The notes: generated by a model not told the origin, from the sequence alone. A DNA stretch of 64,000 nucleotides from Methylotenera sp. (GCA_036676175.1 JAKFDL010000023.1:14807-78806); one strand, 5' to 3'. Counted from the stretch's first letter, positions 1 to 10,531 are shown. Translations and numbers: made by a program.

Positions 1-50
1 TTAGTTGCGCTTAAGAATATTTTAATTTGACGCAGGGTGAGATTGCGCAT
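1..50 (-). CDS. cbbR: 5' end of LysR-type Calvin cycle regulator CbbR (runs off the window's left edge)
   Basis: Reverse complement of 1-50 reads ATG CGC AAT CTC ACC CTG CGT CAA... = MRNLTLRQIKIFLSAT, a LysR HTH N-terminus. It has an AGGA RBS and is divergent from cbbL. Not in the ORF track. Confidence 0.85.
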   Translation of the reverse strand, partial: MRNLTLRQIKIFLSAT

Positions 51-62
51 GCCGTTCCTATC

Positions 63-109
63 ATTAAGTAAAACTTAATCAAGCATAAAATAATAATTAC
101 TTTACCTTA
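63..109. promoter_or_regulatory. Putative CbbR operator
   Basis: Perfect inverted repeat ATTAAGT-AAA-ACTTAAT (63-79) containing TAA-N7-TTA (65-77), plus a second TTA-N7-TTA at 97-109. This fits the LysR T-N11-A / CbbR TNA-N7-TNA pattern. Confidence 0.65.
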
Positions 110-187
110 ACATTAAACACTTTTAAAGTGGGTTCGTGTATTAAGTTTTATATATTGAAAAAGTTTCTTTAAGTGAGGGGTCATCAT

Positions 188-1678
188 ATGGCAAGTCAAC
201 TCAGTAATAACGAAACCATGAAAGAAGGCGCTGACCGCTACAAAGCAGGCGTGCTGCCTTACAAGAAAATGGGTTATTGGCAGCCCGATTATCAAGTGAA
301 AGATACGGATTTATTAGCTATGTTTCGCATTACCCCGCATGCAGGTAGCGACCCGGAAGAAATTGCGGCGGCGGTGGCAGGCGAGTCTTCTACCGCCACT
401 TGGACTGTGGTGTGGACTGATCGACTGACCGCCTGTGAAATGTACCGTGCTAAAGCTTACCGTGTTGAGCAAGTACCCAATACCGGCGAGGGTACCAAAA
501 TTGAAGCCCAATATTTTGCCTATATTGCATATGAGCTAGATTTATTTGAGGGTGGCTCAATCGCTAATTTAACCGCATCCATTATTGGCAACGTGTTTGG
601 TATGAAAGCGGTGAAAGCACTCCGTTTGGAAGACATGCGCATTCCAGTGGCGTACTTAAAAACTTTTCAAGGCCCAGCGACAGGCGTAATCGTGGAAAGG
701 GAAAGGCTGGACAAATTTGGTCGACCATTATTAGGCGCGACCACTAAACCAAAATTAGGCCTTTCGGGCCGCAACTATGGTCGCGTGGTGTATGAAGGCC
801 TCAAAGGTGGTTTGGATTTTATGAAAGATGACGAGAACATTAACTCGCAAGCTTTCATGCATTGGCGCGACCGTTTCCTATACTGCATGGATGCAGTGAA
901 TAAAGCCTCAGCCGCCACGGGCGAAGTCAAAGGCCACTATTTGAACGTGACCGCCGGCACCATGGAGGAAATGTACAAGCGTGCAGAATTTGCTAAGCAA
1001 TTAGGTAGCGTAATTATTATGATTGACTTGGTCATCGGTTACACGGCAATACAATCAATGGCCTTGTGGGCGCGGCAGAACGACATGATTCTGCATTTAC
1101 ATCGCGCCGGCAATTCGACTTATTCACGCCAGAAAAATCACGGCATGAACTTCCGTGTCATCTGTAAATGGATGCGCATGGCGGGCGTAGATCACATTCA
1201 TGCGGGGACTGTGGTGGGCAAACTGGAAGGTGACCCGGCGATGATACGTGGGTTTTATGACACCCTGCTGGATGACCATACACCACAAAACCTTGAGCAC
1301 GGTTTATTTTTTGAGCAAGACTGGGCTTCACTAAATAAGTGTATGCCCGTGGCATCTGGCGGTATTCACGCTGGGCAAATGCATCAGCTACTCACTTACT
1401 TGGGTGATGATGTGATACTGCAATTCGGTGGTGGCACGATTGGTCATCCACAAGGCATTCAAGCGGGTGCGCAAGCAAACCGTGTGGCGCTGGAGGCAAT
1501 GGTGATGGCGCGTAACGAAGGCCGTGATATTTGGAACGAAGGCCCGCAGATTCTACAAGATGCCGCCAAATGGTGTGGTCCACTGAGAGCAGCGATTGAT
1601 ACGTGGAAAGATATTACCTTCAATTACGAATCTACCGACACCGCCGATTTCGTACCCACCGCGACAACCAGTTTTTAG
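188..1678 (+). CDS. cbbL: RuBisCO large subunit, form I red-type (IC-like)
   Basis: Motifs [26 protein letters not shown] (carbamylated Lys), HLHRAG, HIHAGT, GKLEG, ASGG and QFGGG are all present. ATG at 188 follows GAGGGG; the track's GTG at 173 overlaps this RBS. Confidence 0.98.
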
Positions 1679-1689
1679 GAGAAACAATT

Positions 1690-7634: not shown

Positions 7635-7644
7635 AGATAATAAA

Positions 7645-8790
7645 ATGAAAACTCACTCACTCGTCGTTGGTGTTCCTTTCGAAATTAAGAGTGACGAGCA
7701 GCGCGTGGCTGCAACGCCTGAGACCGTAAAAAAAATGCTCACTTTAGGTTGTAAAGTGCTCGTACAAAGGGGTGCGGGTGAGCGCGCCAGCATTACTGAT
7801 ACTGCATATGAGGCAGTGGGCGCAGAGATTGTTTCCGCAAAAGAGGTGTTTAAAGCCGATTTAATTCTTAAGGTACGTGCACCAGAATCAAACGAAATCA
7901 AAGCCATGAAATCGGGAACTGTATTAATCGGCTTGCTGGAGCCCTTTAATCTGCCCCAATTAAATGCCATCGCTGCACAGGGCATTACTGCATTTTCACT
8001 GGAAGCACTCCCCAGAAACTCCAGGGCACAAAGCATGGATGTGCTGTCTTCGCAGGCGAATGTGGCGGGCTACAAAGCAGTGTTACTGGCCAGCCATTTT
8101 TACCAACGTTTTATGCCGATGCTGATGACAGCTGCAGGCACAGTGAAGGCTGCGCGGGTATTGGTGTTGGGGGCAGGGGTTGCCGGATTACAAGCGATTG
8201 CTACAGCTAGAAGACTAGGCGCCGTGGTAGAAGCCTCCGATGTGCGTCCGGCAGTGAAAGAGCAGATTGAATCACTCGGTGCAAAGTTTTTAGAGGTGCC
8301 TTACGAAACAGCAGAGGAGGAAGAAATTGCTGCTGGTGTTGGTGGCTATGCGCGCCCAATGCCAAGGGAGTGGATGATGCGACAAGCAACACTTGTTGCC
8401 CAACGCGCTGCCGAGGCGGATATTGTGATTACTTCTGCACTGATTCCTGGTCGTGAGCCACCGATTTTACTGCATGCGGAAACCGTAGAAAAAATTAGGC
8501 ATGGCGCAGTTGTCATCGACATGGCAGCTGGCCTCGGTAAAAATGGCTGTGGCAATTGCCCGCTCACAGAGGCGAATCAAGTGGTGGTGAAACATGGCGT
8601 TACCATCGTGGGTTATACCAATTTACCTAGCTTGGTTGCAGCAGATGCCTCCGCTTTTTATGCCCGCAATATTTTAGAGTTTTTGAAGTTATTAATATCA
8701 GAGGAGAAATTGAATCTCCCTGCGGATGACGAATTAGTAATGGCGAGTTTGATGTGCAAAGATGGTCAATTAATTAAAAAAAGTGACTGA
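7645..8790 (+). CDS. pntAa: Proton-translocating NAD(P) transhydrogenase alpha-1 (domain I)
   Basis: [17 protein letters not shown] and the Rossmann motif LGAGVAG. Confidence 0.95.
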
Positions 8791-8810
8791 AAAGAAATAG
8801 GGAAGCGCTT

Positions 8811-9161
8811 ATGACTGAATTACTCACCATGCAGAACATTACTATTTTCGTGCTGGCCATATTTGTGGGTTATCACGTGGTTTGGACGGTGACACCAGCC
8901 TTGCATACCCCACTGATGTCAGTCACTAACGCCATTTCGGGCATTGTGATTGTGGGCGCCATGCTCCAAACGGTAAGTATAGATGGTGAAACTTTAAATT
9001 TAACCAGTATTTTGGGAGCGATTGCAGTATTTTTAACTTCAATTAATATCTTTGGTGGCTTTCTAGTCACCCGACGCATGTTGGAAATGTTCAAAAAGAA
9101 AGAGGCCAAGGTATCAGAAAACAAGGTTTCAGAGTCGAGAGCAGTGGAGTCAAATAAATGA
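8811..9161 (+). CDS. pntAb: Transhydrogenase alpha-2 membrane subunit
   Basis: [18 protein letters not shown] and [16 protein letters not shown]. Confidence 0.95.
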
Positions 9162-10531
9162 ATGTGATTAATCCCAATTTCATCTCGGCCGCTTATTTAA
9201 TCTCTGCGGTATTGTTTATTTTCTCACTCAAGGGGTTGGCTTCTCCCACCAGTGCGCGTTTGGGGAATACATTGGGCATGGTGGGGATGGCAATCGCAGT
9301 CACCACCACTTTCTTCGTTGGTCATCATCTTATATTCTCACTCATTGCTGGTGCGATTGTTTTAGGTGCAGTTGTAGGTACTTTGGCTGCAAAGCGAGTG
9401 CAGATGACCAAAATGCCAGAGCTGGTCGCTCTGATGCACTCGTTTGTGGGCTTGTCAGCAGTATTGATTGCTATTGCTGCTGTGTACAACACGGCAGAGA
9501 CACATACATCGGTGCAGCGCATTGAGTTGTTTATCGGTGCTTTTATCGGCGCAATCACTTTTACCGCTTCTGTGGTCGCTTTTGGTAAGCTATCTGGGAA
9601 ATTTGGTGCAAAACCAGTGAGTTTTAAAGGCCAGCATTTGTTAAATCTAGTGCTGGCTTTACTCATGTTGGGTTTTGGTATTTTGTATTATCTGCAAAGC
9701 AGTCAGCTGGCTTTTCTAGTGATGTGCAGCTTGGCACTCATTTTAGGAATGACGCTCATCATACCTATCGGTGGGGCTGATATGCCAGTGGTGGTCTCCA
9801 TGCTGAATAGTTATTCTGGTTGGGCGGCGGCCGGCATTGGCTTTACCTTGAACAATCCTGTGCTCATTATTGCCGGGGCTTGTGTGGGCTCGTCTGGTGC
9901 GATTCTGTCTTATATTATGTGTAAGGCCATGAATCGCTCCATCATTGCCGTTATGCTGGGTGGGTTTGGCGCTGAAACCAGTGTAGATGCAGCGGCAGGT
10001 GAACAAAAAGCAGTGAAATCAGGCTCCGCAGAAGACGTGGCATTTTTAATGGGCAATGCCGATACTGTGATTATTGTGCCAGGTTACGGTTTGGCTGTTT
10101 CACGTGCGCAACATGCGCTACAAGAACTCACCACTAAATTAATCGCCAAAGGCGTCAATGTAAAATACGCCATTCACCCAGTCGCAGGCCGTATGCCTGG
10201 GCATATGAATGTTCTTCTAGCGGAGGCAGATGTGCCTTACGAGCAAGTGGTGGAGATGGAGGACGTGAATAATGAATTTGGGCAAACTGACGTCGTTTTT
10301 GTGATTGGTGCCAATGATGTAGTGAACCCCGCCGCTAAAAAGCCCGGCAGTGCTATCTACGGCATGCCGATTCTAGAGGCTTACAAAGCCAAAACCATCA
10401 TTGTCAATAAACGCACCATGGCGGCTGGCTATGCAGGTTTGGATAATGAGCTATTCTATTTAGATAAAACCATGATGGTGTTTGGCGATGCTAAGCATGT
10501 CGTTGAAAGTCTTGTAAAGGCGATAGACTAG
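9158..10531 (+). CDS. pntB: Transhydrogenase beta subunit
   Basis: [39 protein letters not shown] and GANDVVNP; ATGA overlap with pntAb. Confidence 0.96.

What the first reader, a model, noticed from the sequence alone, without database searches (positions are those of the whole stretch)
1..10531. Intact, CbbR-regulated red-type Calvin cycle operon in an apparent Methylophilaceae genome
Seen: cbbR <- -> cbbL-cbbS-cbbX-fbp-prk-cbbZ-fba with all RuBisCO catalytic motifs, an activase, PRK and an operator. Established: characterized Methylophilaceae assimilate C1 via the RuMP pathway and are not described as autotrophs; methylotrophic autotrophy via CBB is known in Paracoccus and Xanthobacter. 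Inference: AlaS, LysC, the XoxG-like cytochrome and the sucrose cluster point to a Methylotenera-like host. If so, this could be an autotrophic or mixotrophic lineage, or a RuMP+RuBisCO hybrid that recaptures CO2 from methanol oxidation.
Basis: partly seen in the sequence, partly recalled or inferred. Interest (0 to 1): 0.85.

Follow-up and report, generated by a model that had tools for sequence, protein, structure and literature searches.

The report
Calvin-cycle gene island in a Methylotenera-like methylotroph
The window carries an intact, selectively maintained CO2-fixation (Calvin cycle) operon in a Methylotenera-like methanol-eating bacterium, but the same thing is already in public genomes and has been reported in several papers since 2022, so it is real and not new.

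Summary
Window 1-10531 carries the first 16 codons of a divergent cbbR and a conserved LysR-type dyad. These are followed by an unbroken cbbL-cbbS-cbbX-fbp-prk-gph-fba-tpiA-pntAA-pntAB-pntB operon. RuBisCO is red-type (form IC) with all catalytic motifs, and CbbX and PRK score above curated cut-offs. The host call also holds. LysC falls in a 90%-identity cluster with Methylotenera proteins. The closest operons (CbbL 96-98%) lie in three Methylophilaceae/Methylotenera MAGs. Independent metagenome contigs span the pntB/cfa junction, and depth is even over all of the window that was examined. The module is under strong purifying selection (dN/dS 0.01-0.11) and matches the host in composition. It is nevertheless accessory: a relative 91% identical in DNA has efflux-pump genes at this site instead.

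The novelty claim does not hold. RuBisCO plus PRK in Methylotenera or Methylophilaceae genomes is reported in PNAS Nexus 2022, ISME J 2025, ISME Commun 2025 and mBio 2026, and one of these reads it as facultative autotrophy. No CO2-fixation experiment on a Methylophilaceae member turned up in the searched literature. The tpiA-pntAB extension, the mosaic structure and the empty site are modest additions. Interest 0.3.

The parts
1..50 (-). 5' end of cbbR (LysR-type activator). Only 16 codons lie in the window; the rest runs off the left edge.
   Evidence: Translation MRNLTLRQIKIFLSAT equals the N-terminus of the 306-aa LysR protein on L002, which encodes an identical CbbL. The homologues in L003 and L005 hit the CbbR model NF045990 at 274-281 bits, below its cut-off of 450.
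51..187 (.). Divergent cbbR-cbbL control region. It holds the palindrome ATTAAGT-AAA-ACTTAAT at 63-79 (T-N11-A = 65-77) and a second conserved block, TTACTTTACCTTAAC, at 97-111.
   Evidence: Alignment of five loci (window, L003, L004, L005, L090). The dyad core and the second block are invariant while the surrounding sequence diverges. No binding data exist.
188..1678 (+). cbbL, large subunit of red-type (form IC) RuBisCO
   Evidence: NF003252, 766 bits vs cut-off 438. The best PDB matches are red-type enzymes (25hn, 1bwv, 1bxn, 5nv3), and all catalytic motifs are present.
1690..2124 (+). cbbS, red-type small subunit with the C-terminal extension
   Evidence: It aligns over its full length (to residue 144) only with red-type small subunits (25hn_B, 1bxn_I, 1bwv_S). 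Alignments to green-type chains stop near residue 109.
2143..3048 (+). cbbX, AAA+ activase of red-type RuBisCO
   Evidence: TIGR02880, 494 bits vs cut-off 459. 421 bits to R. sphaeroides CbbX 3syl/3zuh, with Walker [10 protein letters not shown] and Walker B LFIDEAY conserved.
3064..4125 (+). fbp (cbbF-type class 1 fructose-1,6-bisphosphatase; sedoheptulose bisphosphatase activity is inferred)
   Evidence: NF006779, 475 bits vs cut-off 349.
4155..5027 (+). prk (cbbP), bacterial-type phosphoribulokinase
   Evidence: NF011997, 476 bits vs cut-off 362.
5053..5709 (+). gph (cbbZ-like), HAD-family phosphoglycolate phosphatase
   Evidence: NF009695 at 207 bits (cut-off 225) and TIGR01449 at 161 bits (cut-off 180): the best matches, but below the cut-offs. 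The gene is absent from the L004 and L005 versions of the operon.
5773..6837 (+). fba (cbbA-type class II-B fructose/sedoheptulose-bisphosphate aldolase)
   Evidence: TIGR01521, 622 bits vs cut-off 496.
6864..7634 (+). tpiA, operon-linked triose-phosphate isomerase
   Evidence: TIGR00419, 192 bits vs cut-off 131. Relatives at or above 69% identity are few: three sit in or beside cbb/pntAB gene sets (L083, L087, L090) and one between amtB and gshA (L084). Ordinary TpiA proteins are at or below 55%.
7645..10531 (+). pntAA (7645-8790), pntAB (8811-9161) and pntB (9158-10531): proton-translocating NAD(P) transhydrogenase, the last genes of the unit
   Evidence: NF006942, 399 bits vs cut-off 383. 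NF006974, 547 bits, below its cut-off of 689. These genes follow the cbb genes in L003, L004, L005 and L090, but in none of the other 76 closest CbbL-bearing genomes within 10 kb.
10540..11919 (-). cfa (cyclopropane fatty-acid synthase), the first gene of the host backbone. It converges on pntB with an 8-bp gap and marks the right boundary of the island.
   Evidence: L164 (GCA_036675645.1) is 90.9% identical to window 10550-21957 but carries RND efflux genes beyond cfa. Contigs from three metagenomes span the pntB/cfa junction.

Best explanation
This is a genuine chromosomal Calvin-Benson-Bassham module of about 10.5 kb in a Methylotenera-like member of the Methylophilaceae. The organism occurs in soil, rhizosphere and groundwater metagenomes.

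Inferred mechanism, by homology:
- CbbR, transcribed divergently, binds the conserved T-N11-A dyad and activates a single long transcript.
- PRK phosphorylates ribulose-5-phosphate. In a RuMP-cycle methylotroph this is the same pool that accepts formaldehyde.
- Form IC RuBisCO, kept active by CbbX, carboxylates RuBP to 3-phosphoglycerate.
- The operon's own FBPase, class II aldolase and TPI strengthen sugar-phosphate regeneration.
- The Gph-like phosphatase removes 2-phosphoglycolate produced by the oxygenase side reaction.
- PntAB converts NADH to NADPH at the expense of proton-motive force. This would replace the NADPH that the oxidative RuMP branch supplies during growth on C1 compounds.
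- Transketolase, RPE, RPI, PGK and GAPDH are not in the operon and must come from host central metabolism.

The module is an accessory island and is absent at this site in a close relative. Its RuBisCO genes group with those of Nitrotoga and Gallionellaceae, and its middle section is mosaic. It has been resident long enough to match host composition and is under strong purifying selection. The most likely role is facultative autotrophy or mixotrophic CO2 co-assimilation.
For: - Gene identities and cut-offs.
- Catalytic motifs and red-type affiliation.
- One strand, with gaps of 63 bp or less or overlaps between the genes.
- Conserved dyad.
- Host: LysC 95% identical to, and clustered at 90% with, Methylotenera sp. 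proteins. Cfa and LysC lie on the same 108,393-bp public contig. The nearest operons are in three Methylophilaceae/Methylotenera MAGs, at 85% DNA identity over the whole 10.5 kb for L003.
- Contiguity: X1, X2 and X5 contigs span 9488-12010, 9488-11670 and 10463-12592. Depth is even at roughly 5-12x (mostly 7-10x) over 1-40000 and 44001-64000.
- GC3 of the operon genes is 0.40-0.50, inside the range of the rest of the window, 0.33-0.50.
- dN/dS against L003 is 0.012-0.108 for all 11 genes, with dS 0.5-1.2.
- Empty site in L164.
- CbbL tree.
- Literature: all Methylotenera genomes compared in PMC11978286 have the RuMP pathway, and its LW2 clade also has RbcL and PRK.
Against: - No expression or activity data exist for this organism, and no RNA run could be listed.
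- Methylophilaceae cbbL was transcribed negligibly in Lake Constance, at 0.00-0.11 FPKM (PMC12642877).
- The electron donor for autotrophy is unknown. No hydrogenase, sox or formate dehydrogenase genes lie in the window or in the 10-kb flanks of its relatives.
- hps/phi, xoxF/mxaF, tkt, rpe, gap and pgk could not be checked because the rest of the genome is not available here.
- The Gph and PntB matches fall below curated cut-offs.
- Organism names of MAGs and MAG proteins are the submitters' own.
- The tree is neighbour-joining without support values.
Confidence: 0.8

Rival explanations
1. The module does not support autotrophic growth. Instead it works as a RuBisCO shunt inside methylotrophy. 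PRK and RuBisCO draw on RuMP-cycle Ru5P to recapture CO2 released by formaldehyde or formate oxidation, or to dispose of excess reductant, as in Methylococcus capsulatus Bath, where RubisCO is required for growth on methane. This partly overlaps with the best explanation.
For: - The host family is built around the RuMP cycle (PMC11978286).
- The operon lacks tkt, rpe, gap and pgk and so depends on host pentose-phosphate enzymes.
- A redox-balancing transhydrogenase is co-transcribed.
- No lithotrophic energy genes lie nearby.
- There is a precedent in a RuMP methanotroph (PMC8388818).
Against: - The module is dispensable at the genus level: it is absent at this site in L164 and absent from most Methylotenera clades. 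It is therefore not a core part of methylotrophy.
- The full set of FBPase, aldolase, TPI and Gph is what autotrophs carry in their cbb operons.
Confidence: 0.3
2. The island is horizontally acquired cargo that is rarely or never expressed and contributes little to fitness.
For: - Presence/absence polymorphism between close relatives.
- Variable flanks and mosaic gene content among carriers.
- Negligible Methylophilaceae cbbL transcripts in one lake study.
Against: - dN/dS is 0.01-0.11 across all 11 genes at dS 0.5-1.2.
- No frameshifts or stop codons.
- The regulatory dyad is conserved.
- Composition matches the host.
- The module is retained in at least four diverged species-level lineages.
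Confidence: 0.1
3. The operon is not in a Methylophilaceae genome at all. On this view it is a Gallionellaceae, Nitrotoga or Nitrosomonadaceae fragment joined to Methylotenera DNA by misassembly or mis-binning.
For: After the Methylotenera clade, the next closest CbbL and CbbS are from Gallionellaceae (93% and 89%) and Nitrotoga (91% and 86%).
Against: - Three independent metagenome assemblies contain contigs crossing pntB/cfa, one of them with zero differences.
- Depth is equal on the operon and on the rest of the window in two runs.
- The cfa-to-xdhC backbone right next to the operon is 91% identical to another genome, L164.
- GC3 of cbbL is 0.50 here, against 0.60 in the Gallionellaceae copy, and DNA identity to that copy is only 79%.
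- Only cbbLSX, not the rest of the operon, is shared with Gallionellaceae and Nitrotoga.
- Three MAGs from different studies and two papers place the same module in Methylophilaceae.
Confidence: 0.03

Closest known systems
CBB gene sets of lake-water Methylotenera (clade LW2, PMC11978286) and of Methylophilaceae MAGs (PMC13059738, PMC9802188)
   Same: Same family and probably the same genus. RuBisCO and PRK are present together with a RuMP-cycle background, CbbR lies next to the genes, and the papers interpret the sets as facultative CO2 fixation.
   Different: The papers give presence/absence tables and one context figure. I could not confirm that their operons include tpiA-pntAB, or that L003-L005 belong to LW2; the search terms 'S06.Bin152' and 'JAABQZ' gave no match. 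The lineage here is found in soil, rhizosphere and groundwater metagenomes rather than in lake water.
cbb operons of form IC autotrophs, such as Cupriavidus necator cbbLSXYEFPTZGKA (from my own knowledge) and the Nevskia, Rudaea and Panacagrimonas loci fetched here
   Same: Divergent cbbR. The order cbbL-cbbS-cbbX-fbp-prk...gph-fba is shared. Outside the Methylotenera clade, the closest CbbX, Fbp, Prk and Fba among the fetched loci come mostly from Nevskia, Rudaea, Panacagrimonas and related loci (54-78% identity).
   Different: There is no transketolase, GAPDH, PGK or RPE gene in the operon. tpiA and pntAA-pntAB-pntB are appended, which is seen in none of the other 76 closest CbbL-bearing genomes.
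cbbLSX of Ca. Nitrotoga and Gallionellaceae
   Same: Closest RuBisCO subunits outside the clade (CbbL 90-93%, CbbS 86-89%), and the sister groups in the CbbL tree.
   Different: Only cbbLSX is shared. CbbX is only 66-68% identical. No fbp, prk, fba, tpiA or pntAB follows. DNA identity is 77-79% and GC3 is equal or higher in those copies (0.50-0.60 against 0.50 here).
RuBisCO in the RuMP-cycle methanotroph Methylococcus capsulatus Bath (PMC8388818)
   Same: A C1 oxidiser with a RuMP cycle that also encodes RuBisCO. It shows that the two pathways can operate in one cell and that RuBisCO can matter during growth on a reduced C1 substrate.
   Different: It belongs to a different class (Methylococcales). 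Its operon was not compared here. Essentiality is shown there and is untested here.
cbbLSX of Methylobacillus sp. MM3 and two soil Methylophilaceae MAGs (L054, L058, L070)
   Same: Same family, with form IC cbbLSX (CbbL 87% identical).
   Different: They form a separate CbbL lineage near Thiobacillus. No prk, fbp or fba lies within 10 kb. Two cytochrome cL-like genes follow cbbX instead. The MM3 genome note does not mention RuBisCO.

Membership tests
Form I red-type (IC) RuBisCO | Large subunit with the full catalytic residue set: carbamylated Lys in [10 protein letters not shown], plus KPKLG, HRAGN, HAG..GKLEG, SGGIH and GGGTIGH | tested here: met
   All motifs are conserved in the alignment to PDB 25hn. 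NF003252 scores 766 bits against a cut-off of 438.
Form I red-type (IC) RuBisCO | Small subunit with the red-type C-terminal extension, and a closer relationship to red-type than to green-type enzymes | tested here: met
   CbbS aligns to residue 144 only with red-type chains (215-268 bits). Green-type chains score 87 bits or less and their alignments end near residue 109. CbbL scores 833-1010 bits to red-type entries and 686 bits or less to the others.
Form I red-type (IC) RuBisCO | Carboxylase activity of the L8S8 holoenzyme | not testable with these tools
   Requires an enzyme assay.
CbbX red-type RuBisCO activase | AAA+ protein of the CbbX equivalog family with intact Walker A and B motifs, encoded next to cbbLS | tested here: met
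   TIGR02880 scores 494 bits against a cut-off of 459. GNPGTGKTT and LFIDEAY are conserved against 3syl. The gene lies 18 bp after cbbS.
CbbR-regulated cbb operon | Divergently transcribed LysR-family regulator gene upstream of cbbL | tested here: met
   16 codons lie in the window. The full 306-aa gene is on L002, which encodes the identical CbbL, and in L003, L004, L005 and L090.
CbbR-regulated cbb operon | The regulator belongs to the CbbR equivalog family | tested here: inconclusive
   NF045990 is the best family for the L003, L005 and L090 regulators, at 274-281 bits, but below its cut-off of 450.
CbbR-regulated cbb operon | LysR T-N11-A dyad in the intergenic region, bound by the regulator | tested here: inconclusive
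   The dyad ATTAAGT-AAA-ACTTAAT (63-79) is present and its core is invariant in five loci. Binding and activation were not testable.
Complete Calvin-Benson-Bassham cycle | PRK and RuBisCO, the two pathway-specific enzymes | tested here: met
   PRK NF011997 scores 476 bits against a cut-off of 362. RuBisCO as above.
Complete Calvin-Benson-Bassham cycle | Regeneration and reduction enzymes: TKT, RPE, RPI, PGK, GAPDH and SBPase activity | not testable with these tools
   FBPase, FBA and TPI are in the operon. The others are not in the 64-kb window, and the rest of the genome could not be fetched. SBPase activity of the class 1 FBPase is inferred only.
Methylophilaceae (Methylotenera-like) host | Housekeeping genes and backbone affiliated with the family | tested here: met
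   LysC is in a 90%-identity cluster with HSI24770.1 [Methylotenera sp.] and is 94% identical to MBC7757121.1. The closest operons are in three MAGs named Methylophilaceae or Methylotenera. Window GC of 0.37-0.49 compares with 42.6-43.1% in three Methylotenera genomes listed in the supplement of PMC11978286. No multi-marker phylogeny was possible.
Methylophilaceae (Methylotenera-like) host | RuMP-cycle genes (hps, phi) and methanol dehydrogenase (xoxF/mxaF) | not testable with these tools
   None lie in the window. The cytochrome cL-like gene at 32960-33463 scores 83 bits against a MoxG cut-off of 148. The literature states that the RuMP pathway is present in all Methylotenera genomes it compared.
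Genomic island (accessory, horizontally exchanged module) | Presence/absence between close relatives, with a sharp boundary | tested here: met
   L164 is 90.9% identical to window 10550-21957 and has different genes beyond cfa. The flanks differ among L003, L004, L005 and L090.
Genomic island (accessory, horizontally exchanged module) | Mobility signatures: integrase, flanking repeats, tRNA target, or atypical composition | tested here: not met
   Composition is host-like. No integrase or tRNA lies at the right boundary. The left boundary lies outside the window, and in L003 it is a nitrate-assimilation cluster. The module is therefore an old or recombination-borne island, not a recognisable mobile element.

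The most novel reading that the evidence does not exclude
The cbbR-to-pntB unit may be a self-contained 'autotrophy cassette' that moves by recombination among Methylotenera strains. It would bundle RuBisCO, activase, PRK, the regeneration enzymes, its own TPI paralogue and its own NADPH supply (PntAB). This would let soil and groundwater methylotrophs switch to lithoautotrophic or formate-driven growth, or to obligately CO2-dependent mixotrophic growth. Methylophilaceae would then contribute to dark CO2 fixation in soils and aquifers. 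The operon-embedded transhydrogenase would be a previously undescribed accessory of cbb operons.
Probability: 0.25. Interest if true: 0.55.

Novelty: already known. Interest (0 to 1): 0.3.

Why it matters
Methylophilaceae are treated as textbook RuMP-cycle methylotrophs. If some of them fix CO2, carbon budgets need adjusting: 13C-methanol stable-isotope probing, assignments of dark CO2 fixation in lakes, soils and aquifers, and models of methane-derived carbon flow would all be affected. That point has already been made from genomes by several groups. What is still missing is an experiment. Two things here could help design one. The first is the well-defined operon with a presence/absence pair of close relatives. 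The second is a cultured family member, Methylobacillus sp. MM3, that carries cbbLSX. The tpiA-pntAB extension suggests that NADPH supply is the bottleneck when a RuMP methylotroph runs the Calvin cycle.

Tried and rejected
- **RNA evidence:** The look-up of sequencing runs listed no RNA run for window 1-5000, so expression could not be assessed.
- **NCBIfam for CbbS:** it gave only a spurious weak CcmM hit. This was resolved with PDB small-subunit matches.
- **Own genome record:** exact-protein look-ups returned only short metagenome contigs, L001 and L002. I therefore could not search the genome for hps/phi, xoxF, tkt, hydrogenase or sox.
- **Link to the published LW2 clade:** the supplement of PMC11978286 has no match to the search terms 'S06.Bin152' or 'JAABQZ'.
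- **Energy genes in flanks:** the regions upstream of cbbR in relatives hold nitrate assimilation genes (L003) or mqo, rlmB and rnr (L005), and nothing lithotrophic.
- **TpiA metagenome scan:** it was meant to show whether tpiA-pntAB is a native cluster that the cbb genes joined. It found only six relatives at 69% identity or above. Three lie in or beside cbb/pntAB gene sets (L083, L087, L090). One stands between amtB and gshA (L084). Two are on contigs whose other genes were not identified. The contigs carry no taxonomy, so the origin stays open.
- **Promoter and terminator scans:** they gave fewer or no more hits than shuffled sequence and were not used.
- **Rejected readings:** chimeric contig, Gallionellaceae host, and pseudogenised relic (see the rival explanations).
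- **Literature on pntAB in cbb operons:** one unrelated review was the only hit.

Full report
**What is there.** The ORF list and NCBIfam scan show eleven co-directional genes on the + strand between 188 and 10531:
- cbbL 188-1678
- cbbS 1690-2124
- cbbX 2143-3048
- class 1 fbp 3064-4125
- prk 4155-5027
- a phosphoglycolate-phosphatase-like HAD gene, 5053-5709
- class II-B fba 5773-6837
- tpiA 6864-7634
- pntAA 7645-8790
- pntAB 8811-9161
- pntB 9158-10531

Gaps between genes are 10-63 bp, or the genes overlap. CbbL, CbbX, Fbp, Prk, Fba, TpiA and PntAA pass the curated cut-offs. Gph (207 bits vs 225) and PntB (547 vs 689) are best hits below cut-off.

On the minus strand, bases 3-50 encode MRNLTLRQIKIFLSAT. 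This is the N-terminus of a 306-aa LysR regulator seen in full on metagenome contig L002, which encodes an identical CbbL. So cbbR is present but cut by the window edge.

**Enzyme quality.**
- CbbL aligns end to end with red-type RuBisCO structures (25hn 1010 bits; 1bwv, 1bxn, 5nv3). It keeps the motifs that contain the catalytic residues: [40 protein letters not shown] and GGGTIGH.
- CbbS matches red-type small subunits through its C-terminal extension. Green-type alignments stop near residue 109.
- CbbX is 421 bits to R. sphaeroides CbbX, with Walker A and B intact.

**Control region.** The 137-bp cbbR-cbbL spacer has a perfect palindrome, ATTAAGT-AAA-ACTTAAT (63-79), containing T-N11-A, and a second block at 97-111. 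Both are invariant across five loci whose surrounding sequence has diverged. This is a phylogenetic footprint consistent with a LysR operator. Binding is not shown. Consensus promoter and terminator scans were uninformative.

**Host and contiguity.**
- LysC (61214-62449) is 93-95% identical to nearly all of the 120 listed database hits. The few that carry names are Methylotenera sp., and the window's own LysC clusters at 90% identity with HSI24770.1 [Methylotenera sp.].
- Cfa, next to the operon, and LysC are recorded on the same 108,393-bp public contig.
- The sequence is held by soil, rhizosphere and groundwater metagenomes.
- Independent Logan contigs cross the pntB/cfa junction: X1 9488-12010 with no differences, X2 9488-11670, and X5 10463-12592.
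- Word depth is even at about 5-12x (mostly 7-10x) over 1-40000 and 44001-64000 in two runs. The one exception is a spike at two tRNA genes.
- GC3 of the operon genes (0.40-0.50) lies inside the range of the other window genes (0.33-0.50).

A chimeric or mis-binned origin is therefore very unlikely.

**Relatives.** A scan of one genome per GTDB species with CbbL gave these best hits:
- MAG 'Methylophilaceae bacterium S06.Bin152' (L003), 98%
- 'Methylotenera sp.' OTE_75 (L004), 97%
- 'Methylotenera sp.' 340R (L005), 96%
- Gallionellaceae, 93%
- Ca. Nitrotoga, 91%

L003 shares the whole 10.5 kb at 85% DNA identity. L004 and L005 have shorter versions: L004 lacks fbp, gph and fba, and L005 lacks gph. 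All keep tpiA-pntAA-pntAB-pntB. Among the 80 fetched genomes, tpiA and pntAB follow cbb genes only in this clade.

A JGI contig of 276 kb (L090) has the same architecture and the same upstream mqo as L005. Its CbbL is only 74% identical, while Fba is 91%, Prk 86% and PntB 84%. Conversely, Fbp and Prk are only 52% and 74% identical to L005, although CbbL is 96%. The operon is therefore mosaic.

In a neighbour-joining CbbL tree, the window clade is sister to Nitrotoga and then Gallionellaceae. A second Methylophilaceae clade (Methylobacillus sp. MM3 and two soil MAGs) sits elsewhere, near Thiobacillus. That implies at least two RuBisCO lineages in the family. The tree has no support values.

**Accessory status and selection.**
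- L164 (GCA_036675645.1) is 90.9% identical to window 10550-21957 (cfa to xdhC). Beyond cfa it carries AcrB/MFP/TetR/OEP efflux genes instead of pntB...cbbL.
- Flanks also differ among carriers. Upstream of cbbR lie an ANTAR regulator, a nitrate ABC transporter and nirB in L003 and L002, but mqo in L005 and L090. Downstream sequences are unrelated.
- All 11 genes nevertheless show dN/dS of 0.012-0.108 against L003 at dS 0.5-1.2.

The module is thus a long-maintained, functional accessory island. It is neither a relic nor a recent import.

**How it probably works (inferred by homology).**
- CbbR activates one transcript.
- PRK takes Ru5P, which is also the formaldehyde acceptor of the RuMP cycle.
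- RuBisCO and CbbX fix CO2.
- Fbp, Fba and TpiA reinforce regeneration.
- Gph removes 2-phosphoglycolate.
- PntAB supplies NADPH when the oxidative RuMP branch is not running.
- TKT, RPE, RPI, PGK and GAPDH must come from the host.

No lithotrophic energy genes were seen in the window or in relatives' flanks. The donor could be methanol, formate or something encoded elsewhere. Full autotrophy and a RuBisCO shunt of the Methylococcus capsulatus type (PMC8388818) cannot be separated here.

**What is already known.**
- PMC9802188 (2022) reported a Methylophilaceae MAG with the CBB genes.
- PMC11978286 (2025) found RubisCO and PRK in all five high-quality genomes of its LW2 lake-water Methylotenera clade, alongside the RuMP pathway, and called them facultative autotrophs.
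- PMC12642877 (2025) found Methylophilaceae form IC cbbL in Lake Constance with negligible transcription.
- PMC13059738 (2026) reported two Methylophilaceae MAGs with PRK and RuBisCO next to CbbR.
- PMC5095479 (2016) noted both enzymes in the early-diverging isolate LSUCC0135.

I did not find any of the following described:
- the tpiA-pntAB extension
- the empty-site polymorphism
- the mosaic structure
- RuBisCO in the isolate MM3, whose genome note does not mention it

**Verdict.** The novelty is not. Interest is 0.3, because functional CO2 fixation by any Methylophilaceae remains an untested and tractable question.

Noticed in passing
window 32960-33463 (+); L054 12892-14054, L058 13166-14342, L070 3638-4888: The window has a cytochrome cL-like gene (TIGR03872, 83 bits, below the MoxG cut-off of 148). 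In Methylobacillus sp. MM3 and two soil Methylophilaceae MAGs, two tandem homologues (53-63% identical) directly follow cbbX. This suggests a link between this cytochrome family and RuBisCO genes in that lineage.
   Followed up: partly
window 3064-5709 compared with L004, L005 and L090: The operon is mosaic. Fbp and Prk are 52% and 74% identical to L005, although CbbL is 96%. Against L090, Prk is 86% and Fba 91%, but CbbL is only 74%. gph is missing in L004 and L005, and fbp and fba are also missing in L004. Segments of the operon have been exchanged or lost independently.
   Followed up: partly
window 10507 (run X5, groundwater): One groundwater contig follows the window up to 10507, 24 nt before the pntB stop, and then continues for 106 unrelated letters. 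Another contig of the same run spans the pntB/cfa junction. This points to a strain variant with a different right-hand junction.
   Followed up: no
window 30087-45080: An aryl-polyene/flexirubin-type lipid gene cluster. It includes an FkbO/Hyg5 chorismatase, FabG, two ketosynthases, an acyl-CoA ligase, a LolA-like protein, an MMPL/RND transporter, a lipid A-type acyltransferase and a polysaccharide deacetylase. Window 35221-45080 is 75% identical to L165, where the cluster directly adjoins cfa.
   Followed up: partly
window 52794-57856 (-): A sucrose gene cluster: an amylosucrase-like GH13 enzyme, a fused sucrose-phosphate synthase/phosphatase (TIGR02472, 675 bits) and a pfkB-family fructokinase.
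   Followed up: no
window 60921-61137 (-): tRNA-Arg(ACG) and tRNA-Ser(GCT) lie between an unnamed ORF and lysC. Metagenome depth jumps to 92-157x here and contigs break, because the tRNAs are shared by many organisms. Logan contigs therefore do not physically bridge lysC and alaS to the rest, although depth is equal on both sides.
   Followed up: yes
window 18373-22623: A molybdenum-dependent aldehyde oxidoreductase or xanthine-dehydrogenase-family cluster: a 2Fe-2S subunit, a Mo-binding subunit, an XdhC-like maturation factor and a MocA cytidylyltransferase. It has a divergent LysR gene and is conserved in L164.
   Followed up: no
window 50887-52707 (+) and 58259-59644 (+): Two low-GC genes (GC 0.34 and 0.38, GC3 0.33). 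One encodes an AsmA-family protein, the other a TAXI-type TRAP solute-binding protein. They are the most atypical in composition in the window.
   Followed up: no
L084 10001-10756: A TpiA 72% identical to the operon's TpiA stands alone between amtB and gshA-gshB on a 68-kb JGI contig of unknown taxonomy. It may be the native copy from which the operon's tpiA derives.
   Followed up: partly
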